64,000 nt of DNA from a virus (taxonomy: Duplodnaviria; Caudoviricetes): positions 1-64,000 of the IMG/VR virus record IMGVR_UViG_3300033120_000845, one strand, 5' to 3'. Every line of letters starts with the position of its first letter. Within the stretch, counting starts at the first letter, position 1. The position numbers and the translations under genes are program-made. The notes under the pieces were generated by a model that worked only from the letters and a program-made list of their open reading frames with translations, made no database searches and had not been told where the DNA came from. Positions 1 through 20,490 of this stretch are shown piece after piece.

Positions 1-68
1 AATCAGTCATAAACCGATACTTTATGCTTCCTTAATCCGCCACATCGCCAAGTTGCGAACCGTTATAA
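1..68 (+). mobile_element. attC-like hairpin site S0 (right arm only, truncated by window start)
   Basis: CGCCAAGTTGCGAACC-GTTATAAG resembles the right arms of S2/S3; GTT at 62-64 overlaps the TAA stop of the 63..707 ORF. Confidence 0.7.
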
Positions 69-707
69 GCAAGCTGCTACGTTCCTGCTCCGAATGAAAG
101 TTCCCCATTGTTCAGCCATACTTTTTGCCACTCCGCTAAAAGTTTTTGAGCTTTCCTTTTGACTTATATTTACAAATTGGTATTTCTGCCCTCGTTTCTT
201 ACCTCCTGTATTGCTCGGTAAATACGGCTTATAGTTGCTTTTAATGTCAGTCGGTTTTAATAGTGGCAAATTTTTCAACCACAATAAAGTTCTTTTGCTG
301 TATTCGTGTCCATATTCGTATGGCTGTATCGCTTGGCTATGTTTTGGCAATTCAACCACTTTTAAAGGCGTTGGATTTTCAATAGCAATATATTCAATAG
401 GTGCGTTAAGTAGTTTCAAAAACAAATCCTTCGCTTCCATTGCCTTTGCATATCTATCTTGGCACAAATTACCTGCCGTTGGATACATCCATCTTGCTCC
501 AGCCCTACTCATATAAGTACAAGGTGGGTGTGCAATCATCATATCATATTTACCACTATAAGCCTCTTTTACTGCATCTCCTACAATATGCCATTCAGGT
601 TTACCACCGCTACATTCTTGTAGGTCGCAACTATAAGCATCAAATCCTAATTCTCGGAAAGCTCTGCAAACTTCTTGGCTCTCCTCACAAGCTATTAATA
701 TTTTCAT
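63..707 (-). CDS. C5-cytosine DNA methyltransferase-like protein (phage type), cassette 1
   Basis: N-terminal SAM-binding-like ILIACEES, catalytic HPPC, ENP motif, C-terminal KTFSGVAKSMAEQW. Confidence 0.75.
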   Translation of the reverse strand: MKILIACEESQEVCRAFRELGFDAYSCDLQECSGGKPEWHIVGDAVKEAYSGKYDMMIAHPPCTYMSRAGARWMYPTAGNLCQDRYAKAMEAKDLFLKLLNAPIEYIAIENPTPLKVVELPKHSQAIQPYEYGHEYSKRTLLWLKNLPLLKPTDIKSNYKPYLPSNTGGKKRGQKYQFVNISQKESSKTFSGVAKSMAEQWGTFIRSRNVAACL

Positions 708-744
708 TTCAATTTAAGTTTTTCGTTAATAATCCGCAGCCAGC

Positions 745-842
745 TTATAACAGCGGTTTTGTGCTATTTGCCCATCAATATTTGTGGTAAACTTGAAACT
801 TTGTGCAAGGGCAAACAGACACAAAGCCGCAAAACGTTATGT
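745..842 (+). mobile_element. attC-like hairpin site S1
   Basis: TTATAAC-a-GCGGTTTTGTG..TTTGCCC-loop-GGGCAAA..CACAAAGCCGC-aaaac-GTTATGT. Confidence 0.85.
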
Positions 843-870
843 GAGATTGCTCCAAATTGATTTCATAAGA

Positions 871-1428
871 CTATTTCGCCATCAAATCGGCTAACTCTTT
901 TTGCTTTCTAATAATTTCTCTTTGTTTAAAATCTTCTTTGTTCAAATCATAATATTTTTTTATAATTGAATCGTAATTATTAAACACTTCTTTTGCGTTT
1001 TCTAATTTAAAGTAAAGGCTTTTGTTTGCGCTATCACAATAATCAGGATTAAACGATTTTAATTCAAAAAAGAATTTTTCAAAGAAAATAGTTGGATAAT
1101 CCCCACCAAAAATATATGCTCCAGTAGGATAACTAAATTTAATAAGTCTTTCTCCTTTTGGTTTTTTACCATTATCCTCCCAGCTTATTGTTGTTCTTTC
1201 GCTATCAATAAAAGTTAGATGTACATTGTTTTTCAATTCTTGATACTGAATGTTATTTATTCTTTTTTCGTCAATTTCAAGTCCGTAAACCTCTTTTAAT
1301 TCCAATCCAAATAAATGGTTATTGGCTTTTAATTCTAAATCTTGAAAATCAAAATTTAATAAATCTTTGTTCTTTTTAGCGATTTTCAAAATGCTGTCAT
1401 AAATCTTTTTTGTTTCTTGTAATTTCAT
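871..1428 (-). CDS. hypothetical protein, cassette 2
   Basis: 185-aa ORF filling the space between S1 and S2. Confidence 0.8.
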   Translation of the reverse strand: MKLQETKKIYDSILKIAKKNKDLLNFDFQDLELKANNHLFGLELKEVYGLEIDEKRINNIQYQELKNNVHLTFIDSERTTISWEDNGKKPKGERLIKFSYPTGAYIFGGDYPTIFFEKFFFELKSFNPDYCDSANKSLYFKLENAKEVFNNYDSIIKKYYDLNKEDFKQREIIRKQKELADLMAK

Positions 1429-1457
1429 AACGTTTAGTTTTAAAAACCCACAACCTC

Positions 1458-1590
1458 ACATAACAAGTGTTTGGCAAAAAAGCGGGTTCGGTTATTAATT
1501 TAAAATCTGTTTTGTGTCTTTATAATTTAGGCTTAATCGAAGTTTCGGGCATTTTTAACCGCTTCTTCGCCAAGCACTAGGACGTTAGCA
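1458..1590 (+). mobile_element. attC-like hairpin site S2
   Basis: ACATAAC-a-AGTGTTTGGC..AAGCGG-loop-CCGCTT..GCCAAGCACT-aggac-GTTAGCA. Confidence 0.85.
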
Positions 1591-1596
1591 GTAACT

Positions 1597-1824
1597 TTAC
1601 CAACTAACTCGAATAAAATCGCCTTGTCTTTGGTCTAATGTTTCTTTAACATCAAATCCCTGTGCTTTTAACCATTTAACAACTAATTCATCGTAAAGGT
1701 CTGAATCAAATGTGGTTTCCCTTTTCCCGTAAGAAGCAACATTTTTTAATCTTCTTTTTATTTCTTCAAGTTTTGGGGAATTTTGACTTTCTGAAATAAT
1801 CTGCAATTCTTTAATAAAATCCAT
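1597..1824 (-). CDS. hypothetical protein, cassette 3
   Basis: 75-aa ORF ending just inside the S2 boundary; C-terminal ..VSW seen in small phage proteins. Confidence 0.75.
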   Translation of the reverse strand: MDFIKELQIISESQNSPKLEEIKRRLKNVASYGKRETTFDSDLYDELVVKWLKAQGFDVKETLDQRQGDFIRVSW

Positions 1825-1859
1825 TTTTCTATGTATGTTTTAAAAATATGTATAGAGAA

Positions 1860-1973
1860 TTACTTTTTTCTATACATTTCGATTAATAAATAAAATATCC
1901 TTCCTAATGCTAAAAGTATAAATGGAATTGTCCAAAAATATACCCAACAATTAATCTCTTCTTGTATCGACAT
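1860..1973 (-). CDS. small hydrophobic peptide (37 aa), cassette 3
   Basis: Manually translated MSIQEEINCWVYFWTIPFILLALGRIFYLLIEMYRKK; ATG lies just inside the cassette end; below ORF-track cutoff. Confidence 0.4.
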   Translation of the reverse strand: MSIQEEINCWVYFWTIPFILLALGRIFYLLIEMYRKK

Positions 1974-1982
1974 AAAAGCTAC

Positions 1983-2077
1983 TGCTAACAAAGGTTTGGC
2001 GCAATAAAGCCACAACCTTCTTATTAATATTCTTGTTTTTCTAAGGCTTTACTTCGCCAAGCCTCTGGACGTTATAA
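1983..2077 (+). mobile_element. attC-like hairpin site S3
   Basis: TGCTAAC-aa-AGGTTTGGCG..TAAAGCC-loop-GGCTTTA..CGCCAAGCCT-ctggac-GTTATAA. Confidence 0.85.
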
Positions 2078-2088
2078 ACAATAAATAA

Positions 2089-2235
2089 CTAATCTTCGTC
2101 TATATCGTTATGAAATAAATATTCGTCTGTTTCGCAATCAGGACAATTTCCATCTATTAAATCTTCACTGTCTAAAAAAGAATTACATTGTCTACAAATA
2201 AATTCTTTATCTTTATAATCTTTACTAAATCCCAT
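2089..2235 (-). CDS. 48-aa zinc-ribbon protein, sole gene of cassette 4
   Basis: Manually translated MGFSKDYKDKEFICRQCNSFLDSEDLIDGNCPDCETDEYLFHNDIDED (CxxC...CPxC); fills the cassette. Confidence 0.7.
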   Translation of the reverse strand: MGFSKDYKDKEFICRQCNSFLDSEDLIDGNCPDCETDEYLFHNDIDED

Positions 2236-2246
2236 TTTTTTACTGT

Positions 2247-2379
2247 TTATAACATCGGTTTTGCTCTATTGCGGTTTAGTGCTTAACCAATCTTCGGTTT
2301 GTGTTTGTTAATTTTGTTTTTTAACTCAATAATTTAGGATTACTTTTCCGCAACAAAGCAAAGCCTCGAAACGTTATAT
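2247..2379 (+). mobile_element. attC-like hairpin site S4
   Basis: TTATAAC-atc-GGTTTTGCT..TTGCGG-loop-CCGCAA..AGCAAAGCC-tcgaaac-GTTATAT. Confidence 0.85.
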
Positions 2380-2389
2380 GAGATTTATT

Positions 2390-2593
2390 CTAAACTTGGG
2401 GCACCCAAACTAAATTAATAAAATCTGTTTCAAACCCTTCGCTTTCAATAATAGAAACAAAATCATCCTTTACAACAACTTTATAAAAATCAAAGTTTTC
2501 ATTTAAGTAATCCTCTAAATCTTTATGATTATTTGCAACTAAAATAATATCGTTACAAAAATTTCTTTCGTATTTAAACAGTAATTTATTCAT
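2390..2593 (-). CDS. hypothetical protein, cassette 5
   Basis: 67-aa ORF filling the space between S4 and S5. Confidence 0.7.
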   Translation of the reverse strand: MNKLLFKYERNFCNDIILVANNHKDLEDYLNENFDFYKVVVKDDFVSIIESEGFETDFINLVWVPQV

Positions 2594-2614
2594 ATTTATA
2601 TAAATTTAAACCTC

Positions 2615-2748
2615 ATATAACAGCAGTTTTGCGCAAGTGGCAGTTTGTTTTATGCCTGTTATATTTCGGCTTGGTTAATAATTATTTTTTATTTGTTATC
2701 ATTGTTTTTAAATCGTGCCACCTTCGCAAAGCTGGCAACTCGTTATCC
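2615..2748 (+). mobile_element. attC-like hairpin site S5 (right end of array 1)
   Basis: ATATAAC-ag-CAGTTTTGCG..GTGGCA-loop-TGCCAC..CGCAAAGCTG-gcaactc-GTTATCC; GTTA overlaps the stop of a 24-aa minus-strand ORF (2743..2817). Confidence 0.85.
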
Positions 2749-2834
2749 TATAAAAGAAAAAGTAATTAGTCCCACTAATATAATAACTCCTGCTAAAAAT
2801 GTTTTTCTACAATACATATTATTTTATTTTTTTA

Positions 2835-2866
2835 CAAATGTATTAATTATTTATTTGATGTGCAAA
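2835..2866 (-). promoter_or_regulatory. Bacteroidota sigma70-type promoter pointing into cassette array 1
   Basis: Minus strand TTTGCACA-N16-TACATTTG matches the -33 TTG / -7 TAnnTTTG consensus. Confidence 0.7.
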
Positions 2867-2884
2867 TGTTTTCTCTGTTTTTTT

Positions 2885-3148
2885 TTACCTTTTTTCGCGC
2901 AAAAATTCCAAATTTAATTGTTCTACAAAAGCAAATAACTCTTCTTTTTCTTCCTGAGAAGGTTTTCTCCAATGAGAGAAGATTTTTAAATCTGCTTCTA
3001 TTAATTTTTTTTGCGCCCAAATTGACAATTCTTCGCTATGTTGTCCATATTCTAATTTTATTAGTTTAGGTTGAATCTTAATTGCATTCTGTTCTCCATG
3101 ATAAAGAGAAACACTTCTTGTATATAGATTTACTGCGAATCTTGTCAT
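2885..3148 (-). CDS. hypothetical protein
   Basis: 87-aa ORF in a co-oriented, tightly packed gene run. Confidence 0.6.
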   Translation of the reverse strand: MTRFAVNLYTRSVSLYHGEQNAIKIQPKLIKLEYGQHSEELSIWAQKKLIEADLKIFSHWRKPSQEEKEELFAFVEQLNLEFLREKR

Positions 3149-3154
3149 GTTTTT

Positions 3155-3502
3155 TTATTCAATTAGTTTTCTAATTCTTTGAGCTTCTTCATAGTCTTCG
3201 TTTTCTAAAGCCTTTTTAAGTTTTAGTTCAAGAGTGTACTTATCATATAAATTTGTAAATAAGCTTTCCGGCTCTGTATAATAGTCCCACCCATTTTGCC
3301 AAATATCAAAAGCAACTTTAATTAACTTTTCTTCTCTAAACATTCTTATATAAGATTCCTCTAAATTTTTCAAATATATCATCCCATTTGCTACTCCAAT
3401 AAATTGTAACTTATCTCCAATATAAGAGCGGTCTCCATATCCATCTGATGGGCTCACCCTTGTAATAAAACTACCTTTTTCAATTTCTATTATATTTTTC
3501 AT
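3155..3502 (-). CDS. protein with C-terminal UVR (UvrB/UvrC) coiled-coil motif
   Basis: LELKLKKALENEDYEEAQRIRKLI. Confidence 0.7.
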   Translation of the reverse strand: MKNIIEIEKGSFITRVSPSDGYGDRSYIGDKLQFIGVANGMIYLKNLEESYIRMFREEKLIKVAFDIWQNGWDYYTEPESLFTNLYDKYTLELKLKKALENEDYEEAQRIRKLIE

Positions 3503-3507
3503 AACTA

Positions 3508-3711
3508 TTAATTTGAATGTTGATTATTATTTAAAAACGTTTCAACTATTGTGTAATTTTGTGATTCCACATCAAAAACTGAAAGAAACATATCAAAAGG
3601 ATTGCCCTTTTTCAAATCTTCAAAATGAATACGGCTTTCTAATTTTGTTGAAAAATAAATATTTTCTCTTTCATTAGCTTCACAAACGGTTATCATATAA
3701 GGATACTTCAT
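3508..3711 (-). CDS. hypothetical protein
   Basis: 67-aa ORF, tightly packed. Confidence 0.6.
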   Translation of the reverse strand: MKYPYMITVCEANERENIYFSTKLESRIHFEDLKKGNPFDMFLSVFDVESQNYTIVETFLNNNQHSN

Positions 3712-3714
3712 AGC

Positions 3715-3909
3715 TTATTTCTTTTTTAAAATTTCTGTTGATAGTCCCAACTCGGCGCGTTTTAAATCGACTGCTAATTGAGCTGCTCTTATTGTTTCAT
3801 GTGAGCCACAGTTATAAGGAGTGTTCTTATACATGAACCTTCCCATGTAAGGCTTCTTATCATTTTTTCTTGGCGCGAGTTTTATGTATTTTGGTAGTTT
3901 TTCTTTCAT
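3715..3909 (-). CDS. AP2-like DNA-binding protein
   Basis: PYMGRFMYKNTPYNCGSHETIRAAQLAVD resembles the AP2 domain (G-x-F/H-x-T-x3-A-x2-A-x-D). Confidence 0.55.
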   Translation of the reverse strand: MKEKLPKYIKLAPRKNDKKPYMGRFMYKNTPYNCGSHETIRAAQLAVDLKRAELGLSTEILKKK

Positions 3910-5134: not shown

Positions 5135-5281
5135 AATTTTTAAATCTTTGAATAAAATACTCACCCAACCAAATAACCGATGATAATAAATGTAACCAAG
5201 TGTACATATCTCTATCGTTTTCTAAATCCCACGCGAAAACAAAAAAGAAAAATATACCTGTTAATAAAGGAAATAATGTTT

Positions 5282-8200
5282 TCATTTCACTAAATTTTTA
5301 AAATTATTAACTTCTTTCTCAGTTTTTACGGCGAAAGTTTCTCCTTGCATTACACAATCTTTAAATAGTTCTGCTTGTTTTTTGGTGCAAGGGTTTGATA
5401 GTTGAACCCAATATTCTCTAATATCGTTTTCTGTTATCTTTTGTTGTTTGATTGCTATTGCTATGTGTTTCATAATAAATATTGTTCAGCTTCATCAATT
5501 GTGTCGAACCATTTATAATATTCAATCCTTTGTATTTTCTCTGTTTCAAATTCTTTTTCCGCGACTTTTCCGAAAAGATTTTGTACAAATCTATACTTTT
5601 TAACTTTTGTTTTCGGCGTATTGTTTAGGTGTTTCCATACTGTTACTTTTTAACCTTTAATACTTTACCTGTTGGTTCTTTTCCGCAAAAGTCTAAACCT
5701 CTAAATACTCCATCTGTAAATAGCTCAGCTTCTCTTCTTGTTTTAAATGAATATAAACCTTCTAAAAGAAGTGAGTTGTAATGCCAAATTGTTAGTGCGT
5801 ATGTTTTCATAATGTTTTTAACTTTTCTCTAATGTCATATAATTTACATCTTATTTCGTAACTGTCTGTTCCAAAATCTTGAAATAGCTTTTTACCTATA
5901 CTTTCTAATTCTTTAATTATGTCTTCCATAAAATTAATTTATTTGGTAAATAATTTCTTTTCTGTTTTTTGCACTTCTTATTTGGAGGGTCGCGTTTTCT
6001 TTTTCGCATACCTCTTTAAACTCATTCGCCCACTCTTTTAATCTGTCAAGTTTTTCGTATGGTATAAGAATAGCGTACATTAAGTTGGGAGCAAATGTGA
6101 ATTCTCTTAAACTTGATAAGGCTTTAAAAGTATTATTCTCTTTGGTTTTCATGTAAACCATTAGATTACAGTCTGTTGTTTTCATAATATTTCAGTTATT
6201 TCGCCGCCAAAGAAATAAAAAAGACAGCAATTAATATTCACTTCAAATATAATAATAATTTTCTATTCTACAAAATAAAAAGATTACAATTAATTCGGTT
6301 GATAAAAATCTACATCCAATACTTCGCAAAACTCCCAATTACCTTTACTTACAAAATCATAAATATCAGGTTCATTTTCGCTTTCTGAATTGTTTTCTTC
6401 TTGATATTTATCCCATTTCTCACAAACTAAATCGTAATTGTGTTCTTGTGTTAAAACAGTTCCTACTATTTCTTCACTAAATTTATCGTATAATTGTATT
6501 GCTTTCATAAGTTTTAGTTTAAAGGTTTATAATATTCTTTTTCGCCACGAATAAAAACTAAAGAAGGAGCTCCAACTTTATTATTCTCATAAAAGTTAAT
6601 AATTTCATACCCCATATACTTCTTTAAATCTTTTTTAGAATATTCTTTACAATGTTCTAAAGTATCTGTTGGGTTTTCTGTTAACCACTTTTTTATTTCT
6701 GTTTTTATTTCTTCTTTGTCGAATTTTTCAAACCATTTTATAGGTTGGTCTTTTTCTTGACTGAATAATAAGTGTGCCATATTACTAATTTTTATAATCT
6801 AACATTTCCTTTTTAGTAACTCTATCAAAACCGTAAAACTCTAAAAAGTCGTTAATATGTTTTGCTGTTGTATTGCTAAACCAACCGTAAACGCTCATTT
6901 TGTTTGTTTTGTGGTTATAACTTGCTACTCTTTTACCATAGCTTATTAAGTCGCTATAATGGTCGCCGTCTGAATTTACATATTCGTTTACGTGGTTATT
7001 CTTTTTGTTATTGATATAAAATGTTTTCATAATCTAATTAAATTTAATAGGTTGACTTTCTACTTTTTATTAACTTTCTATACTCGTTTTTCATAATTTC
7101 GCGGGTAAAAGAATTAAAAAAAAGATTTACTATAAACAAAAGATACAATCTCTAACAAAGAAACAGTAACAGTTTCCTGATAAACATATTCCTCTGAATA
7201 ATCAAAGAATATAATAACATCCTTACCCATTTCTGTAAAATCATGAACAGATTGTTTAATGTTAAGATGCTCTTTACAATAAGATTCTAATAGTTGTCTT
7301 TTCATAACATGAATATTAAACCGATAACAAATAATTGATAAATTAAAGCCGCTCTAAGTACATTATGATTAATACTTTCAAAGTCTTCTACTAAATGTGG
7401 GGAAAATATACCAACAAAAGGGGTGAATAAAATTAAATATTTCATAGCTTTAATTTTGTTTTTGGGGGTAACTTACCGCCCTTACATTAATAATCCTTTA
7501 AAACGTTTGTAAATGGTATTCTCGTCTGTTTTTACAATCTTTTCTATTAGTGGAATAAACTCGCCGCAAAAAAGGAATAAAACAGAAAAGAAATACTTTA
7601 TAAAGATAATAAATAATTCCAACACTACCTACAATAAGATAGTAATTTATTTAAAAAACCCCTAACTTATATTCAATATTTTGTCTACTTTGTAATTCTG
7701 ATAAGTGTAATTCAACTTCTACTAATTCAGAATTAACATAAGTAACACTCACAACTTGTAATTTATCAAAAGGTGCTTCATAACCTTGTTCAATTTTTAC
7801 ATATTCCCCTACTCTTGGAATAACTTTAAAATTAGAAGGGAATTTATTTTTAAACTTGTCTATATTAGTTTTAAATATAATTTTCATAATACTTTATTTT
7901 AATTGGTTAAAACTCGCCGCAAAAAAGAATTAAACAGAAGATAAACTAAACACAAACAGTTAACAACCCATAACTATTATAATAACAACTAATAGGAGGA
8001 TAACTATTTAAACTATTGATATCAGATACAACCTTCTGAATATTTATATTATAACAAGATACATTACTCTTTATACGAACTTCTGTAATAGCTAACCTCT
8101 TTTCTTCAAATAAGGATTTAATAATAAAATCTTTGTACTACTTTTTATCGTTATTCAATAAATATTTACTGTTTCTCGTGTTACTGTTAAATGCAATTGT

Positions 8201-11200
8201 TATCTTAACGTTTATTTCTTTATTATCCACTTCTTACCACTTTTTACCACGATTTACCCTAAAAGTACTTTGAAATGCAAAGTGGATTTTTGGTGGGTGG
8301 TGGACTACCGACCTTATTAAACCTCATGTAACCCCTTATAAATCAAGACATTAGGGATAATATCTTTAAATCTTCTTTCATCTCCAAGAGCATTTGCATA
8401 GCGTCTTTATAGTCTTCGTTAGATATAGCTTCTGTTATTATATCTATATCGTTTATTAGTTTGTTTAGCATAATCTTTTTGTTTTTAGTTTTCTTTTGCG
8501 CGGAATTCCTTAAATATGGGATTCTCTCTAAGACTTATATAGAGCATTTTTCCCAAGATTAAGGATTTCTTTTTAATCTGCCAAACATTCTTTCAATTTC
8601 ACCTCTTCCAAAACAGCTAAGAATAAGTTTCTTTTATCTTTTGCTGTTGGCTCTTCCCAATTGTCCCACAATAAACTGTCGTTTGTGTGTTCTCTTAATA
8701 CTTCAATCTCTCCATTTATTTCTATTTCGGCGCATTTATAATAAGAGCCTCTTCCGTTACCTCTTTCCATAAAAGCATTGTGACAGATGATTTTTCCCTC
8801 TATACTGTTATTCTTTAATAACTGAGCTACTTTCTTTATAAAGGCTTTACTACCTCTTTCGTTGTAGTTGTCGTATATGTAGTTTGTTACTGAAAGTTTT
8901 TCTGTTGTCTTCATAATCTTTTTGTTTTAAGTTTTTTTTCGCGCCCAAACCTGAATCGAACAAGGTCGTACCTATTATTTCAGTACTCTACCATTTAAGG
9001 GCTTTTTAAATTATTGTTTTTGATATTTTTCTATTTCTGCGCCGTTTCCTATCTCAGCCGTTAACTTGTGAGCCTCAATTTTAGCGTACAAATTACCATG
9101 TACAGAATGGAATTCACCGTGGTAACGTTCAGGGATAAATAGACTGCCTTGTGTGTTTTCTGTTGTTGGTGTACTGCATCCTATCAAACTGAATAAGAGC
9201 GCAAATAGTATTAATAGTTTTTTCATAATTGTACTTCATTAAAGATTATACGTTCTACTTTTTGGAGTTCTTCTCCTTTTAAATTTTCTTTTGTCGCGCG
9301 GTATTCAATTTCTGCTTGTGTGTCTTCTTTTCCGCGCCAATAGCCTAAAAAGAAACTGCTCACTACTAACACAAGTAATAAGCCTATTAAAGCGATTTCT
9401 TTCATACCTAATTGAATTTTTTATTATACTCTTTACTTACTTGTTCATCTGTTAGGCTTGTAAGATAGTTAAATCTTTCTAAACTTCTTTTTTCGCTTAG
9501 TAGTATAGCTGTTAATTGCTCTGTTCTGTTCATAATTTCTATTTTTTAATTTTCTTTTTCCGGCGAAATTTATAGCAATACCACAAGACGATTGATGTCT
9601 TTTCTACGCAATACATAAAAAGTCTTGAAACCTCTCTCAACTTTTACGTAACTGCATTTTTCTTTTTGCATTGCTGCCCGCATTCCTGATACGCTCCCCG
9701 CATTTTCATACACTACTAAAGTAAGCCTTTCACTTTCTGTTAGTGGTTTGTCGTCTATAAATATAGTTTCCATGATTTTATTGATTGGTGGTTAAAACTC
9801 TTTCGTAGGCTTTTGTCATTTTGTCGTTGTCGGCATAATGTACATTTTTAATTTTTAACATCCATTCGTTAAAACCGTTTACTTTGGTTTTATTTACCGT
9901 TGATAATATTTTGATTGTCTTCATCTTTTTTGCGCGATTTTATAAATTATTTTAATTTTATAACGTTACATTATTTGCTAATTTTTCTGCAATTACTTCG
10001 CTTTTTAGTAAATAATCTACATAATCGACAAAGGCACAACGAATATCCGTACAATACTGATTTTGTGTATAGGTCTTTCTGTAATGCTCTTTAAATTGTG
10101 GATGATTTTCCCAAAAAGATGCGCGTATTTCTTTAAATGTTTTCATAATATTAAAGGTTTTCTTTTAATGTAAAAAATGCGTTTGATAAGTTATTCCAAT
10201 ACTCAGATAAAAATACGTCTTCCTGCTCTTCTGTCTCTATTTTATAACCCGCGTTTTTTGCATTTTCCAATATTTCAAAGTTATAAAAAGGAACAGTTAA
10301 AACAGAAGGAAGACCACGCAACCACTCAGAAAATAAAAATCTTTCGCTCTGGCGTTTGTTGTTTTCGTGTACGTATTCACGCTTGAAAATATTGTACAAA
10401 GTTTTAATTTTGTCGTACAAATAACCATCGTTGTTGATTCCGTAACCGTCAAAATTAATATTGTCTAAGATGGTTTTTTCAAAGAAAGTATAAACAGTTG
10501 TTTTCATAATGATATTTTTTAAATGATTAATTAATGTAAATTTAATGAATTTTTTTTTGATTGTGCAAATAAACTTCGTATTTATTTTAAAGTTTTAAAT
10601 TTGTGCCGTTGTTGTTATCGCTACAAATAAAGTCTTTACTTTCAACGGCTCAGATTTTTATTAGCTTCTTAGTGCCTGACCTGCTCCGTTTACTAATTGT
10701 TTAAAAATGGTTTTGATTGCTTGCATAATGTTAGTTTTTAGTGTTTAACTGTATTTTCTTTTTTTGGCGATACATTTAAAGAAACTAACTCTTTTTTATC
10801 TTCATCATAGCACGAAAACTGATATAATTTTTCTGCAAAGTCATTATCTTTTAAGAAAGAATTATTTCTTTTATTTCGTCTTTTTGCCGTTTCCACCATT
10901 TCACACAACCTTTCATAATTGTTGTAAAATGTATTGTAACCGAATTCTTTTAATATGTCAATAACTACGTTATTTAACGACTCGAATTTATGTCTATCTT
11001 GGAAAGTTAATTGTTTCATAATTTCGCGGATTAAAAAGTTAAAAATTAAAGTTTTCAAATAAAACGGCTATAAATAAAGCCACTAAAAAAGCGATAAACA
11101 AATTTCTATTAAAGTTTTTCATAATTAAAAATTTGTTAGTTGTTCCCCACAATCTGACAATCTATAAAAATCTATTGAATAGCTATTTTGTTGCATACAA

Positions 11201-14508: not shown

Positions 14509-14545
14509 TTGCGTATATATATATATAATAATTACCTGCAAGTGC
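14509..14545 (+). mobile_element. left junction of cassette 6 (half-site resembling one arm of terminal site SD)
   Basis: TTGCGTATAT(AT)n AATA-ATTACCTGCAAGTGC; the last 15 nt are complementary (11/15) to GCACCAACAGGTAAC at 15520-15534. Confidence 0.6.
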
Positions 14546-14561: not shown

Positions 14562-15467
14562 TTAAACATTTTCATTAGAAAAATTATTAAAAATTTCCCC
14601 ACCTTTTAAAAAAGAAAAAATATGAGCAATCACATCAACAGTCCACCCGTTTCCTATTGCTTTATATCTTTGCGTGTCGCTGAAACCAATTGTGTAATCA
14701 ATTGGTAGAGTTTGAAGTATTTCACATTCCTTTGGTGTTAATCTTCTTAATATACCGTTGGATTCTACAATCTGCCCTTCTCTACTATTACTATTATTTT
14801 TGTAATATGTTGCAAACAAACATTTAGATTTATTAGCAACTAAATCAAACCCTTGTTTTTCCCTTACTCGTTCCACAGCACGTTCTGTTAAATAATACTT
14901 TTCATCAACATCGGTTTCAATTATATTTCTAAAATCCAAACCTAAATCAATGGGTTGTTTTACATTCGGTATATTAGTCCAATACAATCTATTACGTCTT
15001 TGATGGCTTAATAATGCTGAATTTATCTTTATAGGTTTTACCCCCAATGCTTCTGAGATTAAATCCTCCCATTCTTTTTTCATTACAACATTTTCAAGTA
15101 AAAAGTATTTTGGTTTAGTTTCATTTAAAACTCTTACATATTCCCAAAATAAACCACTCTTACCTTCAAATCCAACCTTATCACCCATTTCTTCACGATA
15201 TAAACCCATTGTACTAAATGATTGACAAGGTGAGCCACCAATAAGTAAATCAATTTTTGGTAATTCACTTGCTTTTACGTCCACTACACTTCCTATATGT
15301 TTTGTATTTGGGTAATTCCTTTTACACATCTGAATTGCATAACCATCAATTTCAGAAGCGAAATAGTTTTCAATACCAATATCTGCTCGTTCAAGTGCAA
15401 TTTGTCCGCAACTAATACCATCAAATAATGATAATACGTTTATTTTTTCTTTTTTGCCTACGCTCAT
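14562..15467 (-). CDS. dcm: DNA (cytosine-5) methyltransferase, cassette 6
   Basis: Motif I LSLFDGISCG, motif IV GGSPCQ, motif VI ENV, motif VIII QRRNRLYW, motif X IGNGWTV. Confidence 0.92.
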   Translation of the reverse strand: MSVGKKEKINVLSLFDGISCGQIALERADIGIENYFASEIDGYAIQMCKRNYPNTKHIGSVVDVKASELPKIDLLIGGSPCQSFSTMGLYREEMGDKVGFEGKSGLFWEYVRVLNETKPKYFLLENVVMKKEWEDLISEALGVKPIKINSALLSHQRRNRLYWTNIPNVKQPIDLGLDFRNIIETDVDEKYYLTERAVERVREKQGFDLVANKSKCLFATYYKNNSNSREGQIVESNGILRRLTPKECEILQTLPIDYTIGFSDTQRYKAIGNGWTVDVIAHIFSFLKGGEIFNNFSNENV

Positions 15468-15527
15468 TTTTAATAATTTTTTGTTTAGTATTTCAATTTA
15501 AGTTTTCCGTTAATTAACCGCACCAAC

Positions 15528-15657
15528 AGGTAACACGTGCTATAAGCAATAGCGGGTTCTGTGCTATCCGAAAGTTTCTGCTGTTTATTATCGTTTGTCA
15601 TAATTTGAAAGTTCTTTGTTATTAATCCGCTACTGCTCATAGCACCATACGTTATCT
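15528..15657 (+). mobile_element. attC-like hairpin site S6
   Basis: AGGTAAC-ac-GTGCTATAAGCAATAGCGG-loop-CCGCTACTGCTCATAGCAC-catac-GTTATCT; GTTA overlaps the stop of ORF 15652..15846. Confidence 0.85.
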
Positions 15658-15846
15658 TACACAGCTACAATTACATTTAGGATGGTTATACATTCTAAGA
15701 GAGGGTTTTGATTTTTCTCTCAGTTCTTTATTCTCTGTTTCTAATTCTTTTACGCGCGAATTTTGTTTTTCTAACTCATATAGTGAATAGATGAATAGTG
15801 AAAAACCTAATACTGCTAAAATTACTAATGGTTTATTTGTGTTCAT
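15652..15846 (-). CDS. small membrane-anchored coiled-coil protein
   Basis: N-terminal TM helix followed by a coiled coil. Confidence 0.6.
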   Translation of the reverse strand: MNTNKPLVILAVLGFSLFIYSLYELEKQNSRVKELETENKELREKSKPSLRMYNHPKCNCSCVR

Positions 15847-16392: not shown

Positions 16393-16884
16393 TTAGGCTC
16401 TCTTAGTGATATTGAATTCAAAATCTTTTGGTGCTTTTGTTGTCCCGCCGAAATAAGGTCTTAAAATAATTTTCGGAAACCATAATTTCCATCCACTCAT
16501 TCTAAGTAGATAAAGACTGTTATTATTTACTTTAACGAAATAATTATGCTTACTTATTTTAATTTCAAATACGTTTTCTTCATCCTGATTTACAAAACAA
16601 AGTGGAGTTATTGTTCTTTCTCCATTCATATATCTGATAACTAAGATTTCTGTTTTATTTTCTTCTTCGCACCACCTCCAACCGATTCTCACACTTGATT
16701 TATGGTGATGATAACTGTCAGAGAACCCAATGATTTTATTAGTGTCTTTCTGTTTATCAATTTCATAACTGAAATCGCCGATTAATTTAAAAGTCCCACA
16801 TAATTTCCGCGAAAAAGTAAAAAACGGAAAGAAATTAAAATTACAATAATGACTATTCTTTTCTATTAAAAACCGCATACACAC
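16393..16884 (-). CDS. hypothetical protein (beta-rich)
   Basis: 163-aa ORF. Confidence 0.65.
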   Translation of the reverse strand: MCMRFLIEKNSHYCNFNFFPFFTFSRKLCGTFKLIGDFSYEIDKQKDTNKIIGFSDSYHHHKSSVRIGWRWCEEENKTEILVIRYMNGERTITPLCFVNQDEENVFEIKISKHNYFVKVNNNSLYLLRMSGWKLWFPKIILRPYFGGTTKAPKDFEFNITKRA

Positions 16885-17028
16885 CTTTAATTAAAAAGAA
16901 AATAAAAATCGCCGAAAAAGAATATAAAAAATAATAAGATTCCTCATACTCCTGAAAAAAAGAAGCTATAAAAATACCAATCATAGTCAGTAGTGCCCAA
17001 AATAAGTCACTAAATAAAAATTTATTCA

Positions 17029-17316
17029 TTATAAATGTGTTTTAAATGTTGTATTAAACTGTTTATTATAATTTTCTATTTGAAATTTTATTTCCGCGCA
17101 AGTTTCAAAATTAGACCACAGCTCAAAGAAACTAAGGAGAATTAAAAGATTGTTTATATCATATAACCTAAGAATATTAATATAGTCATCTCTGTCAGAA
17201 TATCGGATAATTTCATTGAATTCTATATCTTCGGGAAATACTCCATCAGGGATAAAAGCTATATGTAATTTCCAAAACTCTTTTAATTCTTCAACGGTAA
17301 GTTTCTTTGTAATCAT
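17029..17316 (-). CDS. hypothetical protein
   Basis: 95-aa ORF. Confidence 0.6.
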   Translation of the reverse strand: MITKKLTVEELKEFWKLHIAFIPDGVFPEDIEFNEIIRYSDRDDYINILRLYDINNLLILLSFFELWSNFETCAEIKFQIENYNKQFNTTFKTHL

Positions 17317-17424
17317 TCCCTATAAATAAGATTCTTTATTTTAATAATATTGTAAAATCATTCTTGCGCTTGTCTATTGAATTTTGGAAGGCTTTAGTTA
17401 TGAACAGGACTTTAGTCAACCAAT

Positions 17425-17649
17425 ATGAAACAACATTTTTACAAATTAAAAGACATAGTTGACATAAGCGTTTTTATATTAACTATGTGGCTATCTTTTT
17501 TAATTTTTGTTGGCTATACACTAAAAGAATACACTTGTGTTACCCTTTCATTTTATTGGACAATAATTCTTTTTTATATACTTCCTTTTCTTGTAATAAT
17601 TCTTTCTTTTTTACAAAAAACGATATCAATATCACAAAAAAGACAATAA
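17425..17649 (+). CDS. small 2-TM membrane protein, probably in a truncated cassette
   Basis: Plus-strand hydrophobic ORF in a minus-strand region, left of site SA. Confidence 0.45.
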   Translation: MKQHFYKLKDIVDISVFILTMWLSFLIFVGYTLKEYTCVTLSFYWTIILFYILPFLVIILSFLQKTISISQKRQ

Positions 17650-17777
17650 CAAAAGATAATGATAATGCACATCGTAATTCAGGAACAGATAGAGCCTTAT
17701 TTAACTTTAAATAGGTTTCATATTCATACATTGAAATTCAATATTTTTTCTAACAGTTAACGTTGAGCCAAGCTTAC

Positions 17778-17911
17778 CGCTAACGTTTTGTGGCTTTATG
17801 AAGTTGCGTGCCTCCAAAACAGCCGTTAATAAATTTTTTCTTTTCTTCCCGCACGCACGGAAAATTCCAAACACACCCTAAACAAGCAATTTCATAAAAC
17901 CTCTGTTAGCA
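17778..17911 (-). mobile_element. attC-like hairpin site SA (inverted relative to S0-S6)
   Basis: CGCTAAC-gttttgt-GGCTTTATGAAGTTGC-loop-GCAATTTCATAAAACC-tct-GTTAGCA; its reverse complement has the S1-S5 architecture. Confidence 0.85.
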
Positions 17912-17970
17912 GTAGTATTTTCTTTCAAACTTAGTAAATTTATTTTATCTTCGTCAAAAGATATTTAATT

Positions 17971-18267
17971 ATGATACATAAAGATAATATAAGCACCGAA
18001 CATTATATAAACTCAATAGCTCCCGACTACTACATTGAATTACCTTTCAGACCGGAAGAAAAAATAGAAGAGAAAGATGTTACTTGTGTATTCTCTATTA
18101 TTACAGAACCTTTAAAATTAAGATGTGTAGGCATTGATTATTTCGATATGATTGATAACGATGTTTTATTAGATAAACGTTACGGAGAATATTTGCCAAG
18201 TCATATATACGTTTTTAAAGGAAGACCTTTTGATATTGAAGCTGAAAGAAACAGACTAATTATCTAA
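17971..18267 (+). CDS. hypothetical protein, cassette 7
   Basis: 98-aa ORF between SA and SB. Confidence 0.7.
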   Translation: MIHKDNISTEHYINSIAPDYYIELPFRPEEKIEEKDVTCVFSIITEPLKLRCVGIDYFDMIDNDVLLDKRYGEYLPSHIYVFKGRPFDIEAERNRLII

Positions 18268-18453
18268 AAGATTTTTATAGAACTTATCGTTTGATGTATA
18301 ACTCTCAACACCTCTTAATTGAACTGTTGCTGATTTTCCGCAATCTTTTAAATACTCACAAAATTCTTCAAGGTCTTTATACTCTCTACTTTGAAAGTTT
18401 TCAAGTATTTGAGATGCTAATTTAGAAAAGTATTTTTCCTTATTATTGTCCAT
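18256..18453 (-). CDS. hypothetical protein, cassette 7 (convergent)
   Basis: 65-aa ORF convergent with 17971..18267. Confidence 0.55.
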   Translation of the reverse strand: MDNNKEKYFSKLASQILENFQSREYKDLEEFCEYLKDCGKSATVQLRGVESYTSNDKFYKNLLDN

Positions 18454-18487
18454 AATATTTATTTACAGCAGTTTATCGTAATATTAC

Positions 18488-18620
18488 TGCTAACGTCCCG
18501 CCAGCTTTGTGAAGGTGCAATTTTCACTCACTAACGATGGATTAATAATTAATTTTTATTCTTGCACCAAAACTTTAAATTAAACCTTTAGTTGCACTTT
18601 CACAAAACTGCCTGTTGTGC
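18488..18620 (-). mobile_element. attC-like hairpin site SB
   Basis: TGCTAAC-gtcccgc-CAGCTTTGTGAAGGTGCAA-loop-TTGCACTTTCACAAAACTG-cct-GTTGTGC. Confidence 0.85.
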
Positions 18621-18628
18621 GTTCGTTG

Positions 18629-18925
18629 TTATTCTTCTTTCGCATTTCTTATCAAATACGCTCCTGCAATTGCCATTAAACCAAAATATAAAGGTGTCGC
18701 AGATGTGTATCCCGCACCTCCACCATCATTATAAAAAGCCCCACCTGACCATTCAGAGCTTAGATTACTCATTTGTATTATAGCACCACAATCTTTTATT
18801 AACAGATTTATTGTAAATAGTAAAACCGATAATACAGGTGGAAATAGTAAAATGTAACCAATTGTTTTTTGAATATTTTTCATAATATTTAGTTTTAAAT
18901 TATCTGAGTTGTTTTTAATTTTCAC
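18629..18925 (-). CDS. 2-TM membrane protein, cassette 8
   Basis: Hydrophobic segments GYILLFPPVLSVLLFTI and LYFGLMAIAGAYLI. Confidence 0.7.
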   Translation of the reverse strand: MKIKNNSDNLKLNIMKNIQKTIGYILLFPPVLSVLLFTINLLIKDCGAIIQMSNLSSEWSGGAFYNDGGGAGYTSATPLYFGLMAIAGAYLIRNAKEE

Positions 18926-18969
18926 TAAGTTCTGAAAATTTTTCTTACGTTTACATTTTAATTTTCAAT

Positions 18970-19425
18970 ATGGAAGATTTAATAAAACTAACAGAAAAAA
19001 TACATCCAACAGCTACGAGATTTTTCATTAATCATTTTTTTGTTGCATTATTTTGGTTTATTCCGTTCATAATGTTTAAAAAGGAATTTTTAGATTACTC
19101 ATTTCACATACAAATGATATTAGTTTTCTGCATAAGTTTAATTTGGTATCTTGTTAGCTGTGTTATAAATGTAATATTATTGAATATATTCAATCTTGTT
19201 GATAAATACGGATACTACTTATTAGAGCTTACTACAGTTTTTACAATATTATTTTTATGCGCTTTAATAAATGTTGGATACTATTATTCATTTACAATCA
19301 CTAAATTTCTAAAGCTTTCTTTTATACCTATTGTAATTACGCCCTTTACAATATTCCTAGTAATCGAGCTGTTGTTTTTGATATTAAAAGGAATATTGAA
19401 AGTACAAAAAAAGCAAAATAACTAA
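18970..19425 (+). CDS. 4-TM membrane protein, cassette 8
   Basis: 151 aa with four hydrophobic helices. Confidence 0.7.
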   Translation: MEDLIKLTEKIHPTATRFFINHFFVALFWFIPFIMFKKEFLDYSFHIQMILVFCISLIWYLVSCVINVILLNIFNLVDKYGYYLLELTTVFTILFLCALINVGYYYSFTITKFLKLSFIPIVITPFTIFLVIELLFLILKGILKVQKKQNN

Positions 19426-19564
19426 GTGTACTCAAACTCTCTATTACGGTTAATTTCTTGTTTCCGTCTTTCAAATATGTATATAGTCTAATATGAACAG
19501 GTATTGATGTGATTAACCAAACTATAAAGTATATTGACAACACCGTTTCTAATTTCATTTTCAC
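19346..19564 (-). CDS. small membrane protein, cassette 8 (convergent)
   Basis: 72-aa hydrophobic ORF overlapping the 3' end of 18970..19425. Confidence 0.4.
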   Translation of the reverse strand: MKMKLETVLSIYFIVWLITSIPVHIRLYTYLKDGNKKLTVIESLSTLSYFAFFVLSIFLLISKTTARLLGIL

Positions 19565-19598
19565 GTCTTGTTTTTAGGTAAAGTTGACGTACAATGAC

Positions 19599-19732
19599 GC
19601 ACAACGTCCATAGGCTTTGTGTCAGGTGGCGCGAACCAACACAGACCTCTCTGATTAATAATTATTTTTTAATTGCGCCAAAACTTTCCAAATATTCCTT
19701 TAACCGCCACTTGCACAAAACCTTTGTTGTAC
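19599..19732 (-). mobile_element. attC-like hairpin site SC
   Basis: GCACAAC-gtccat-AGGCTTTGTGTCAGGTGGCG-loop-CGCCACTTGCACAAAACCT-tt-GTTGTAC. Confidence 0.85.
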
Positions 19733-19805
19733 GACGGCTTTTATTATTTCCCGCCAAGTTATTAAAACTTTTTCTTACTTTTGGTTTTCACTTTAAATTT
19801 TTAAT

Positions 19806-20159
19806 ATGGCTGAAATAAACACAACAAAAAATGATGAAATATCAGGTTTGAAAAATAAATATAATCCTGATAAACATTTACCAACACCATTTCCTGAACA
19901 ATTTAAATATGAGAATTGCATTTGTGTATTTTACTCAGTTATTTTAAATGAAAAGTATAAAACTTTAAAAAGAGTATATCATAATGCTAAATTTTATAAA
20001 TCATTTACAGAAAACGATATGGTGGGTTTTGATTATAAAGGCTTTTCTTTGAACGGAGTTTACATATTAACTTCTACTAAAGAAGAAAGTGTTTCAATCT
20101 TAGAAGATATAAAATCTAATACAGAAAATTATAAAGAAAATTATTTAGACTGTATTTAA
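19806..20159 (+). CDS. hypothetical protein, cassette 9
   Basis: 117-aa ORF between SC and SD. Confidence 0.7.
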   Translation: MAEINTTKNDEISGLKNKYNPDKHLPTPFPEQFKYENCICVFYSVILNEKYKTLKRVYHNAKFYKSFTENDMVGFDYKGFSLNGVYILTSTKEESVSILEDIKSNTENYKENYLDCI

Positions 20160-20362
20160 ATTTTCGGTGGTTTTTCAAAAGCTGCTCCGTTAAAATAACT
20201 TGCTCTTTTTAGCTCTTCTTTAAGAATTTTTAAAAATACCTCTATTTCTGAATACCGAAGTTGGTTTAAATGAGAGTAAGTTACGCTTAGTGCTTTACTA
20301 ACTATTTCTTTACTCTCTTTTGTTAAGTGTTTGTATTTTTTACTCATAGTTTTATTAAACAA
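20156..20362 (-). CDS. hypothetical protein, cassette 9 (convergent)
   Basis: 68-aa ORF whose stop overlaps the stop of 19806..20159. Confidence 0.5.
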   Translation of the reverse strand: MFNKTMSKKYKHLTKESKEIVSKALSVTYSHLNQLRYSEIEVFLKILKEELKRASYFNGAAFEKPPKI

Positions 20363-20393
20363 CTTATTTAACGTTCTGTTGAGTTAAGCTGTT

Positions 20394-20490
20394 GTACAAC
20401 TTGTAAATATACGCATTGCGCTTTTTAAATATATCTCGGTTTTATTGAATATATTTACTTTTGTGCATTGCGTATATTTTTTTGTTAATA
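20394..20490. mobile_element. terminal hairpin site SD (distinct class; candidate attI-like primary site)
   Basis: GTACAAC-ttgt-AAATATACGCATTGCGC-loop-GTGCATTGCGTATATTT-tttt-GTTAATA; symmetric spacers; 7 nt from the groES stop. Confidence 0.7.

What the first reader, a model, noticed from the sequence alone, without database searches (positions are those of the whole stretch)
62..20400. Recurrent A/C mismatch at position 11 of the cassette-end duplex
Seen: pairing each cassette's two ends as in the excised circle, and counting from G of GTT / C of AAC, position 11 is A opposite C in C1-C6 (plus strand) and in C7 and C9 (minus strand). C8 shows the same after a 1-nt bulge. Positions 4-10 vary freely between cassettes yet stay mostly complementary, and pairing resumes at 12-14. 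The non-cassette flanks at 2742 (GTTATCCTATA) and 15651 (GTTATCTTACA) also have A at position 11. Inference: the recombinase reads an extended (~15 bp) folded ssDNA site with a fixed mismatch (G.T on the opposite strand), analogous to the extrahelical bases that set strand choice in attC but located outside the AAC/GTT core. This would mark a distinct site class.
Basis: partly seen in the sequence, partly recalled or inferred. Interest (0 to 1): 0.85.

Follow-up and report, generated by a model that had tools for sequence, protein, structure and literature searches.

The report
Fixed wobble in cassette-end stems
The two ends of each mobile gene cassette in this phage pair for 15 bases, with position 11 almost never a normal base pair; the same holds in about 320 cassettes of Bacteroidota and their phages but not in classical integron cassettes, so it is probably a mark read by the small Xer-like recombinase that moves them.

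Summary
Observation confirmed and generalised. The window is the first 64 kb of a 132-kb phage record that carries integron-like cassette arrays. All nine window cassettes, and six more beside a 275-aa tyrosine recombinase elsewhere in the genome, have A at position 11 after GTT opposite C at position 11 before AAC.

I collected 561 sites from 91 viral and 32 bacterial or MAG loci. Among cassettes with well-paired ends, the A/C state holds in 232 of 246 (viral) and 69 of 75 (bacterial). Positions 4-10 and 12-14 are mostly complementary with all four pair types, pairing weakens at 15, and it stops at 16.

As a control, 37 cassettes beside true IntI integrases lose pairing gradually after position 7 and have no fixed mismatch. 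The site class is therefore distinct.

Array layout and tyrosine-recombinase polarity imply that the bottom strand is the substrate. There, position 11 is a T.G wobble. A second near-invariant wobble lies next to the core, 11 steps away.

The role in recognition or strand choice is inferred, not shown. Position 11 accounts for only about 1.2 of the 3.8 kcal/mol computed strand bias.

I found no description in the papers searched. This scan had already noted the same feature on other DNA (e1-5886570, e1-5932993, e1-3921013).

The parts
1..64 (+). Partial hairpin site S0 (3' arm only, cut by the record start), ending in CGTT at 61-64
   Evidence: cmsearch match to model positions 68-136, 27.7 bits; sequence read
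62..76 (+). C1 start arm (GTT + 12); position 11 = A at 72
737..751 (+). C1 end arm (12 + AAC); position 11 = C at 741; position 10 is also mismatched
749..838 (+). Hairpin site B (AACA...CGTT, 90 nt), closing cassette C1
   Evidence: cmsearch 77.5 bits. Metagenome contigs carrying C1 plus this hairpin diverge at 838-840
836..850 (+). C2 start arm; A11 at 846
1450..1464 (+). C2 end arm; C11 at 1454
1462..1586 (+). Hairpin site C
   Evidence: cmsearch 103.9 bits
1584..1598 (+). C3 start arm; A11 at 1594
1975..1989 (+). C3 end arm; C11 at 1979
1987..2073 (+). Hairpin site D (87 nt); a 96%-identical copy lies at genome 131842-131937 with different flanks
2071..2085 (+). C4 start arm; A11 at 2081
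2239..2253 (+). C4 end arm; C11 at 2243
2251..2375 (+). Hairpin site E
   Evidence: cmsearch 113.3 bits
2373..2387 (+). C5 start arm; A11 at 2383
2607..2621 (+). C5 end arm; C11 at 2611
2619..2744 (+). Hairpin site F, last of array A
   Evidence: cmsearch 99.4 bits
2742..2756 (+). Terminal flank with no partner; A at position 11 (2752)
   Evidence: In the wider set, terminal flanks keep A11 in 53 of 73
14531..14545 (+). Solo Dcm cassette start arm with a degenerate core (ATT for GTT); A11 at 14541
   Evidence: Pfam DNA_methylase for 14562..15467
15520..15534 (+). Solo Dcm cassette end arm; C11 at 15524; positions 9-10 are also mismatched
15532..15653 (+). Hairpin site of the solo cassette; the flank 15651-15665 has A11 at 15661
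   Evidence: in the model's training set; missed by the default cmsearch filters
17782..17907 (-). Hairpin site, last of minus-strand array B; the terminal flank read downward from 17784 has A11 at 17774
   Evidence: cmsearch 92.9 bits
17905..17919 (-). C7 end arm; C11 at 17915 (G on the + strand)
18480..18494 (-). C7 start arm; A11 at 18484 (T on the + strand)
18492..18616 (-). Hairpin site closing C8
   Evidence: cmsearch 84.4 bits
18614..18629 (-). C8 end arm with one extra base (18623); C opposite A11 lies at 18625
19591..19605 (-). C8 start arm; A11 at 19595
19603..19728 (-). Hairpin site closing C9
   Evidence: cmsearch 99.8 bits
19726..19740 (-). C9 end arm; C11 at 19736; position 8 is also A/C
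20386..20400 (-). C9 start arm behind a GTT with no hairpin before it (start of array B); A11 at 20390

Best explanation
The sites are folded single-strand recombination sites of an integron-like cassette system. The mobile unit reads, on the top strand, TT-arm...gene (on the other strand)...arm-AAC-hairpin-G.

When a cassette is excised, its two arms come together below the hairpin. They form a 15-bp stem made of a 10-bp helix of free sequence (positions 1-10), one fixed non-Watson-Crick position (11) and a 4-bp clamp (12-15).

The crossover lies at G|TT of the top strand, and tyrosine recombinases cut 5'-arm|centre-3'. The bottom strand should therefore be the substrate.

On that strand position 11 is a T.G wobble, with the T on the cut arm 9 nt from the scissile bond. 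The near-invariant pair next to the core is a G.T wobble. The two lie 11 steps apart, roughly one helical turn, and bracket about the length of one Xer-type arm.

I propose that the 275-aa Xer-like recombinase lacks the IntI insertion that reads extrahelical bases in classical attC. It may instead use these wobble positions, together with A4 and G8, as structural marks that fix its register on an arm of otherwise arbitrary sequence. The same marks would disfavour the top strand, where both positions are A.C mismatches.

Shown: the stem, the fixed position, its absence from IntI-linked cassettes, and the link with the recombinase family.
Inferred: the substrate strand, and any reading by the protein.
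For: - Fixed position: A/C at 11 in 232 of 246 viral and 69 of 75 bacterial cassettes, from 91 and 32 loci.
- Covariation on both sides of it: 4-10 and 12-14 mostly paired with all four pair types, against shuffled partners at 3.2 of 7.
- The ruler sits on the GTT-side arm. About 20% of cassettes have one extra base on the AAC-side arm, yet A stays at exactly position 11. A is 92% over 533 distinct flanks.
- Second invariant: AAC-A and C-GTT in 290 of 295 sites.
- Unit and crossover point: a first GTT with no hairpin before it lies about 50 bp from the recombinase gene. The Dcm cassette has a hairpin on one side only. Metagenome contigs carrying C1 diverge at 58-61 and 838-840.
- Recombinase: Pfam Phage_integrase. 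TIGR02249 matches in two pieces (5-178, 243-314) below its cut-off; the best family is XerA-type. Homologues at 29-86% identity lie in 28 of the fetched viral and bacterial loci.
- Control: 37 cassettes beside IntI genes over the TIGR02249 cut-off pair 100% to position 7, then 78, 59, 51, 46, 35 and 19%, with no fixed mismatch.
- Folding with DNA parameters: the circle-form bottom strand averages -26.4 against -22.7 kcal/mol for the top, and is more stable in 232 of 244. The extended stem appears in the minimum-energy fold in 218 (bottom) against 170 (top).
Against: - No binding or recombination data exist for this family.
- Position 11 contributes only about 1.2 kcal/mol of the computed strand bias. 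The model's treatment of G.T in DNA is approximate.
- The inner-stem wobble (T.G on the top strand in 240 of 323) has the opposite polarity.
- In the array, the arms of one hairpin come from different cassettes and pair at only 4.5 of 12 positions. Excision therefore cannot depend on the paired stem.
- A11 is kept in 53 of 73 terminal flanks that have no partner. This fits reading of the base itself as well as reading of a mismatch.
- Many arrays, including those of cultured Flavobacterium phages, have no recombinase gene nearby.
Confidence: 0.5

Rival explanations
1. Independent base contacts. A at +11 on the GTT side and C at -11 on the AAC side are each read as bases, in the frayed array context or in duplex DNA. 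That they face each other as a mismatch in the circle is incidental.
For: - Both bases are conserved in every context. A11 persists in 53 of 73 partnerless terminal flanks and in 92% of all flanks.
- In the array, the arms are mostly unpaired.
- Other sequence-conserved positions exist at 4 and 8.
Against: - Positions 12-15 beyond it covary, so the circle-form helix is under selection right across position 11.
- The rare exceptions mostly keep A and change the partner.
- Some 'terminal' flanks may be cassette starts whose next site was missed.
Confidence: 0.2
2. A purely thermodynamic device. The interruption weakens the top-strand hairpin, or limits the length of perfect inverted repeat, without any direct protein readout.
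For: The bottom strand folds better in 232 of 244 circle-form sites. The native state costs 3.6 kcal/mol on the top strand against 2.4 on the bottom.
Against: - The position-11 share of the bias is small, about 1.2 kcal/mol.
- Any mismatch at any nearby position would serve, yet both identity and place are fixed in over 90% of about 320 cassettes.
Confidence: 0.15
3. An RNA-level feature. Cassette genes lie on the bottom strand, so each transcript carries GUU-N7-G...U-N7-AAC. This can close the ORF in a 15-bp helix with a legitimate G.U pair, serving as a processing or stability element.
For: Cassette ORFs lie on the strand where positions 0 and 11 would be G.U pairs. ORFs start inside or just after the hairpins.
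Against: - An RNA helix would tolerate A-U or G-C at that position, but the wobble is fixed.
- The AAC/GTT cores, the first GTT with no hairpin beside the recombinase, and the contig breakpoints at the cores all point to DNA recombination.
- No RNA data were examined.
Confidence: 0.05
4. Hitch-hiking by descent. All the arms derive from one ancestral arm, and position 11 is simply inherited.
For: Positions 4, 8 and 12 also show base preferences.
Against: There are 120 distinct 7-mers at positions 4-10 among 203 cassettes and 57 distinct 4-mers at 12-15. The flanking positions have turned over completely while position 11 has not.
Confidence: 0.03

Closest known systems
Integron attC sites and cassette arrays recombined by IntI (class 1 attC, Vibrio VCRs)
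   Same: - Imperfect hairpins bounded by ...AAC and GTT..., with crossover at G|TT.
- Arrays start at a GTT with no hairpin before it, next to the recombinase gene.
- The first bases of a cassette complement the bases before its own AAC.
- AAC-A / C-GTT is shared: 29 of 37 in my IntI-linked control.
   Different: - The arm stem is 15 bp with a fixed non-Watson-Crick position 11. In IntI-linked cassettes pairing fades after position 7.
- The unpaired spacer is 1 nt against 5 nt, with the extra bases on the GTT side of the top strand. That is the 5' arm of the bottom strand, opposite to the classical extrahelical bases (classical layout from my own knowledge of Bouvier 2009 and MacDonald 2006).
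- Cargo genes lie on the other strand and often start inside the site.
- The recombinase lacks the IntI insertion.
Phage-borne CALINs (Qi et al. 2023, PMC9892861), including Polaribacter phage P12002L
   Same: - Clusters of attC-like sites in virulent phages of Bacteroidota, with DNA methyltransferase cargo.
- P12002L holds family-like sites. One cassette (about 38090-38882) follows the position-11 rule after one extra base.
   Different: - That study used IntegronFinder and HattCI and treated the sites as ordinary attC.
- Of the six sites tested, P12002L_attC1 was the one not recombined by IntI1. It is family-like by eye but falls below my model's threshold.
- The extended arms and position 11 were not described.
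CTX-phi attP(+) forked hairpin recombined by XerCD (from my own knowledge)
   Same: A Xer-type enzyme acts on a folded single strand with a mismatched centre. One strand is exchanged and replication resolves the junction.
   Different: That system integrates a whole phage genome at dif using host enzymes. It has no cassette arrays, and its arms are sequence-specific.
dif sites with XerC/XerD or XerA (from my own knowledge)
   Same: The recombinase is most like XerA/XerD. The core-proximal arm bases (YATAA|C) resemble the inner part of dif arms. Position 11 falls near the outer edge of an 11-bp Xer-type arm.
   Different: dif is a duplex site of fixed sequence. Here the arm sequence is free and only its pairing and a few marks are kept.

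Membership tests
Classical integron attC / IntI system | Imperfect hairpin bounded by an inverse core ending in AAC and a core starting with GTT | tested here: met
   All 561 collected sites; consensus TAACA...CGTTA
Classical integron attC / IntI system | Crossover between G and TT of the 3' core, so that a cassette carries its site at one end | tested here: met
   Indirect evidence only:
- a first GTT with no hairpin next to the recombinase gene;
- a solo cassette with a hairpin on one side only;
- metagenome contigs carrying C1 diverge at 58-61 and 838-840.
Classical integron attC / IntI system | Integrase with the IntI-specific insertion (I2 region) in the catalytic domain | tested here: not met
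   TIGR02249 scores 165 bits against a cut-off of 265, matching 5-178 and 243-314 only. The match to 2a3v is in two stretches. The best family is XerA-type. Homologues in other loci align without an insertion.
Classical integron attC / IntI system | Extra (extrahelical) bases on the R''/L'' arm of the bottom strand, with a roughly symmetric unpaired central spacer | tested here: not met
   The spacer is 1 nt after AAC against 5 nt before GTT in 288 of 508 sites, with a constant excess of 4 nt on the GTT side. That places the excess on the bottom strand's 5' arm.
Classical integron attC / IntI system | Cassette ends complementary over the roughly 7-bp R box only | tested here: not met
   Here the design is 10 bp + fixed mismatch + 4 bp. 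The IntI-linked control fades after position 7.
Classical integron attC / IntI system | Cargo ORF on the top strand, with attC downstream of it | tested here: not met
   ORFs lie on the opposite strand and the site lies upstream of, or overlaps, the start codon.
Classical integron attC / IntI system | Recombined by IntI enzymes | not testable with these tools
   The only published data point is that P12002L_attC1 was not recombined by IntI1 (PMC9892861).
Xer/dif-type sites | Duplex site with two sequence-specific 11-bp arms around a 6-8 bp centre | tested here: not met
   The arms are of free sequence and come from one folded strand.
Integron-like cassette system of Bacteroidota and their phages (noted earlier in this scan, not found in print) | AACA...CGTT hairpins in arrays, 15-bp cassette arms with a non-Watson-Crick position 11, and an Xer-like recombinase without the IntI insertion | tested here: met

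The most novel reading that the evidence does not exclude
The recombinase arm site is coded by shape, not sequence. Two G.T wobbles one helical turn apart (next to the core and at position 11) frame a 10-bp helix of arbitrary sequence and set the register of cleavage. This would replace the insertion-domain/extrahelical-base mechanism of IntI. Any gene flanked by arms obeying this rule would then be a substrate, giving a second, simpler solution to structure-specific recombination.
Probability: 0.3. Interest if true: 0.8.

Novelty: new variant of a known kind. Interest (0 to 1): 0.62.

Why it matters
Integron integrases are thought to need a special insertion domain to recognise folded attC sites through extrahelical bases. 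This family is large: I found it in at least 117 viral and at least 120 bacterial or MAG contigs, mostly Bacteroidota, a phylum reported to have almost no integrons (PMC9024848). It moves cassettes with a plain Xer-like enzyme.

A fixed wobble in an otherwise free-sequence arm is a concrete, testable candidate for how that enzyme finds its register and strand. Cultured Flavobacterium phages and their hosts carry such arrays (MN812219), so the test is practical. The cargo includes DNA methyltransferases and Mom-like proteins, so the system probably shuffles anti-restriction genes among phages.

Tried and rejected
- **Alternative unit.** I considered hairpin + following gene, with crossover at the AAC side. 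I rejected it because the array beside the recombinase begins with a GTT that has no hairpin before it and ends with a hairpin. The Dcm cassette also has its hairpin only on the AAC side.
- **cmsearch filters.** With default filters, cmsearch missed two training sites (15532-15653 and genome 131843-131929). Site counts are therefore lower bounds.
- **P12002L.** The model found only one site in P12002L; the short sites there were read by eye.
- **Terminal flanks.** The result (A11 in 53 of 73) is ambiguous, because some may be cassette starts whose next site was missed.
- **Unclear joint.** A contig joint in run X7, from 840 back to 68 with 16 other letters between, could be a circle or tandem junction. 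It rests on one contig with a short side, so I did not use it.
- **Depth.** Depth at the hairpins is inflated by the many related sites in other organisms and says nothing about copy number.
- **Papers.** Searches for a description of this family found only the phage CALIN paper, the IntegronFinder surveys and a recombinase classification. None mentions extended arms or position 11.
- **Withheld genomes.** G043 and G145 are marked unpublished. They were not used.

Full report
**What the window is.** The window is the first 64 kb of a 132,413-bp IMG/VR virus record, rated 92% complete. Earlier notes of this scan call it crAss-like; I did not test that. Its left end and the stretch 17.8-20.4 kb hold arrays of small genes separated by imperfect hairpins of 87-137 nt. 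Each hairpin begins AACA and ends CGTT.

A third array of six cassettes lies at genome 102348-106694. It starts about 50 bp from a 275-aa tyrosine recombinase gene. A fragment of a fourth lies at the record's end.

**The observation.** For each cassette I compared the bases after its GTT with the reverse complement of the bases before its AAC.
- Five cassettes of the plus-strand array, the solo Dcm cassette, three minus-strand cassettes and the six cassettes beside the recombinase were checked.
- In all of them position 11 is A after GTT and C before AAC.
- In three (C8 and two cassettes beside the recombinase) this holds after allowing one extra base on the AAC-side arm.

**Is it general?**
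- A pattern built only from hairpin motifs found at least 117 viral contigs and at least 120 bacterial or MAG contigs.
- The bacterial hits are mostly Bacteroidota: Flavobacterium, Chryseobacterium, Pedobacter, Chitinophagaceae and Cyclobacteriaceae.
- A covariance model built from 16 sites of this genome then located 561 sites in the fetched loci.
- Neither the pattern nor the model covers position 11.

I took neighbouring sites on one strand as the bounds of a cassette and kept cassettes with at least 5 of 7 pairs at positions 4-10. This left 246 viral cassettes from 91 loci and 75 bacterial cassettes from 32 loci.

| Position | Viral | Bacterial |
|---|---|---|
| 4-9 | 90-100% paired | 91-99% paired |
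| 10 | 81% paired | 81% paired |
| 11 | A/C in 232 of 246 | A/C in 69 of 75 |
| 12-14 | 94-96% paired, all four pair types | 83-96% paired |
| 15 | about 77% paired | about 77% paired |
| 16 | 9% paired, mostly A facing A | 17% paired, mostly A facing A |

Further points:
- About one cassette in five has one extra base on the AAC-side arm near positions 9-10. The A on the GTT side stays at exactly 11.
- Shuffled partners pair at 3.2 of 7 positions, against 6.1 observed.
- The flanking positions have turned over completely: 120 distinct 7-mers among the first 203 cassettes. Descent alone therefore cannot explain the fixed position.

**Control with classical integrons.**
- I found attC-like sites with an ad hoc hairpin and core search.
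- 37 cassettes from 8 genomes had positions 4-7 fully paired.
- Their pairing falls steadily: 78, 59, 51, 46, 35 and 19% at positions 8-13. There is no preferred mismatch and no resumption.
- They do share AAC-A / C-GTT (29 of 37).
- The design of 10 bp + fixed mismatch + 4 bp is therefore specific to the present family, while the core-adjacent A/C position is common to both.

**What the unit is, and which strand is cut.** Three lines put the crossover at G|TT of the strand written AACA...CGTT.
- The array beside the recombinase opens with a GTT that has no hairpin before it and closes with a hairpin.
- The Dcm cassette has a hairpin on one side only.
- Contigs from wastewater and river metagenomes carry cassette C1 with its right-hand hairpin, but diverge from the window at 58-61 and at 838-840.

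Tyrosine recombinases cut with the arm 5' of the centre (established chemistry). On a hairpin, the cut arm must therefore be the 5' arm, which makes the bottom strand the substrate, as in integrons. This step is inferred.

On the bottom strand position 11 is T (cut arm) facing G. The pair next to the core is G facing T. Each arm thus reads 5'-T, ten bases, G-3', with the two wobbles 11 steps apart.

**The enzyme.**
- It matches Pfam Phage_integrase and SAM-like N-terminal domains.
- Its best curated family is XerA-type, at 206.8 bits against a cut-off of 220.
- It matches the integron-integrase model and VchIntIA (2a3v) only in two pieces, skipping model positions 179-242, the region of the IntI insertion.
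- Homologues at 29-86% identity, without an insertion, lie within a few kb of sites in 28 of the fetched loci, both viral and bacterial.

**How much can thermodynamics explain?** I used ViennaRNA DNA parameters.
- Circle-form sites fold to -26.4 kcal/mol on the bottom strand and -22.7 on the top. The bottom strand is more stable in 232 of 244.
- Changing position 11 to A.T in silico shows that the native state costs 3.6 kcal/mol on the top strand and 2.4 on the bottom. It therefore supplies about 1.2 of the 3.8 kcal/mol bias.
- The inner stem carries a wobble of opposite polarity: T.G on the top strand in 240 of 323 sites, replaced by Watson-Crick pairs in most of the rest.
- A purely energetic role is thus weak. 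The strict identity and place of position 11 fit a recognition mark better.

**Limits.**
- In the array, the two arms of one hairpin belong to different cassettes and pair at only 4.5 of the 12 positions 4-15. The extended stem exists only at the excised-circle junction, or as a long-range pairing across the gene.
- A11 persists in 53 of 73 terminal flanks. Reading of the base itself, rather than of the mismatch, therefore cannot be excluded.
- Nothing here shows protein binding.

**Literature.**
- IntegronFinder 2.0 reports almost no integrons in Bacteroidetes (PMC9024848).
- Qi et al. 2023 (PMC9892861) reported attC clusters in virulent phages, including Polaribacter phage P12002L.
- The P12002L genome holds family-like short sites and a cassette that follows the position-11 rule.
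- P12002L_attC1 looks like a family member by eye but falls below my model's threshold. It was the only one of six sites that IntI1 failed to recombine. This is one weak data point for a distinct site class.
- A survey of tyrosine recombinases notes that the IntI insertion is 'not fully conserved' in its integron-like subgroup (PMC8138268).
- I found no description of the extended arms or of position 11.

**Earlier notes of this scan.** The integron-like system has been noted many times, and the position-11 feature was noted on three other genomes. My tests are independent of those notes. New here:
- the IntI-linked control;
- the second wobble and the symmetric arms;
- the fixed ruler on the GTT side;
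- the terminal-flank and array-context figures;
- the energy decomposition;
- the metagenome breakpoints.

**Verdict.** It marks a variant of the integron site design that goes with an Xer-like recombinase. Its function as a register or strand mark is the best reading (about 0.5) but is untested.

Noticed in passing
all sites, e.g. window 752 and 835; 1465 and 1583: The base after AAC is A and the base before GTT is C in 290 of 295 sites. This is a second fixed A/C (bottom strand G.T) position next to the core. With position 11 it makes both arms read 5'-C, ten bases, A-3' on the top strand. The core-adjacent A/C is shared with IntI-linked attC sites (29 of 37).
   Followed up: partly
position 16 of cassette arms, e.g. 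window 77 and 736: The stem ends sharply. Position 16 is paired in only 9-17% of cassettes and is most often A facing A.
   Followed up: partly
window 61-548 and genome 131926-132413: Cassette C1 occurs twice in the genome at 92.8% identity, behind two different hairpins. Homology starts exactly at the GTT core.
   Followed up: partly
window 1986-2081 and genome 131842-131937: Hairpin D has a 95.8%-identical copy whose flanks differ on both sides.
   Followed up: no
window 62-838: Cassette C1 with its hairpin is present at 90-100% identity in wastewater, river and freshwater metagenomes of several studies, while neighbouring cassettes are not. The cassette therefore circulates on its own.
   Followed up: partly
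window 63-65; L003:4349-4351: The TTA of the GTTA core is the TAA stop codon of the cargo ORF in some cassettes (ORFs 63..707 and L003:4349..4702). A at position 4 is 88% conserved, so the core supplies a ready stop in one frame.
   Followed up: no
L003:4650-4702, 6141-6193, 6670-6717: Several cargo ORFs beside the recombinase start inside the hairpin and read through its arm and core, giving unrelated proteins similar N-termini.
   Followed up: no
window 20403-20470: Just outside the hairpin-less GTT that opens array B lies an inverted repeat of about 15-17 bp (AAATATACGCATTGC ... GCATTGCGTATATTT) about 45 bp apart. It could be a docking or regulatory site.
   Followed up: no
window 20498-22238 (minus strand): Phage-encoded chaperonin pair: Cpn10-like (82 aa) and Cpn60/TCP-1-like (496 aa), next to array B.
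   Followed up: partly
L127 (MN812219.1, Flavobacterium phage vB_FspS_morran9-1) 1508-8274: A cultured 38-kb Flavobacterium phage holds an array of about 16 such sites with methyltransferase cargo and no annotated integrase nearby. 47 records in the phage collection (46 named Flavobacterium phages) match one site at 80-95% identity.
   Followed up: partly
L248 (NC_028924) 29235-30058: In Polaribacter phage P12002L, one cassette has the same stem design (9 bp, internal loop, 4-bp clamp), but positions 10-11 are A facing A twice instead of A facing C.
   Followed up: no
L003:4788-5492, 6822-7568, 7693-8639; window 14562-15467: Cargo with recognisable families is mostly DNA modification or repair: a Mom-like protein, an RNA ligase, N6/N4 methyltransferase pieces and a Dcm-type C5 methyltransferase. 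Most window cassettes have no Pfam match.
   Followed up: partly
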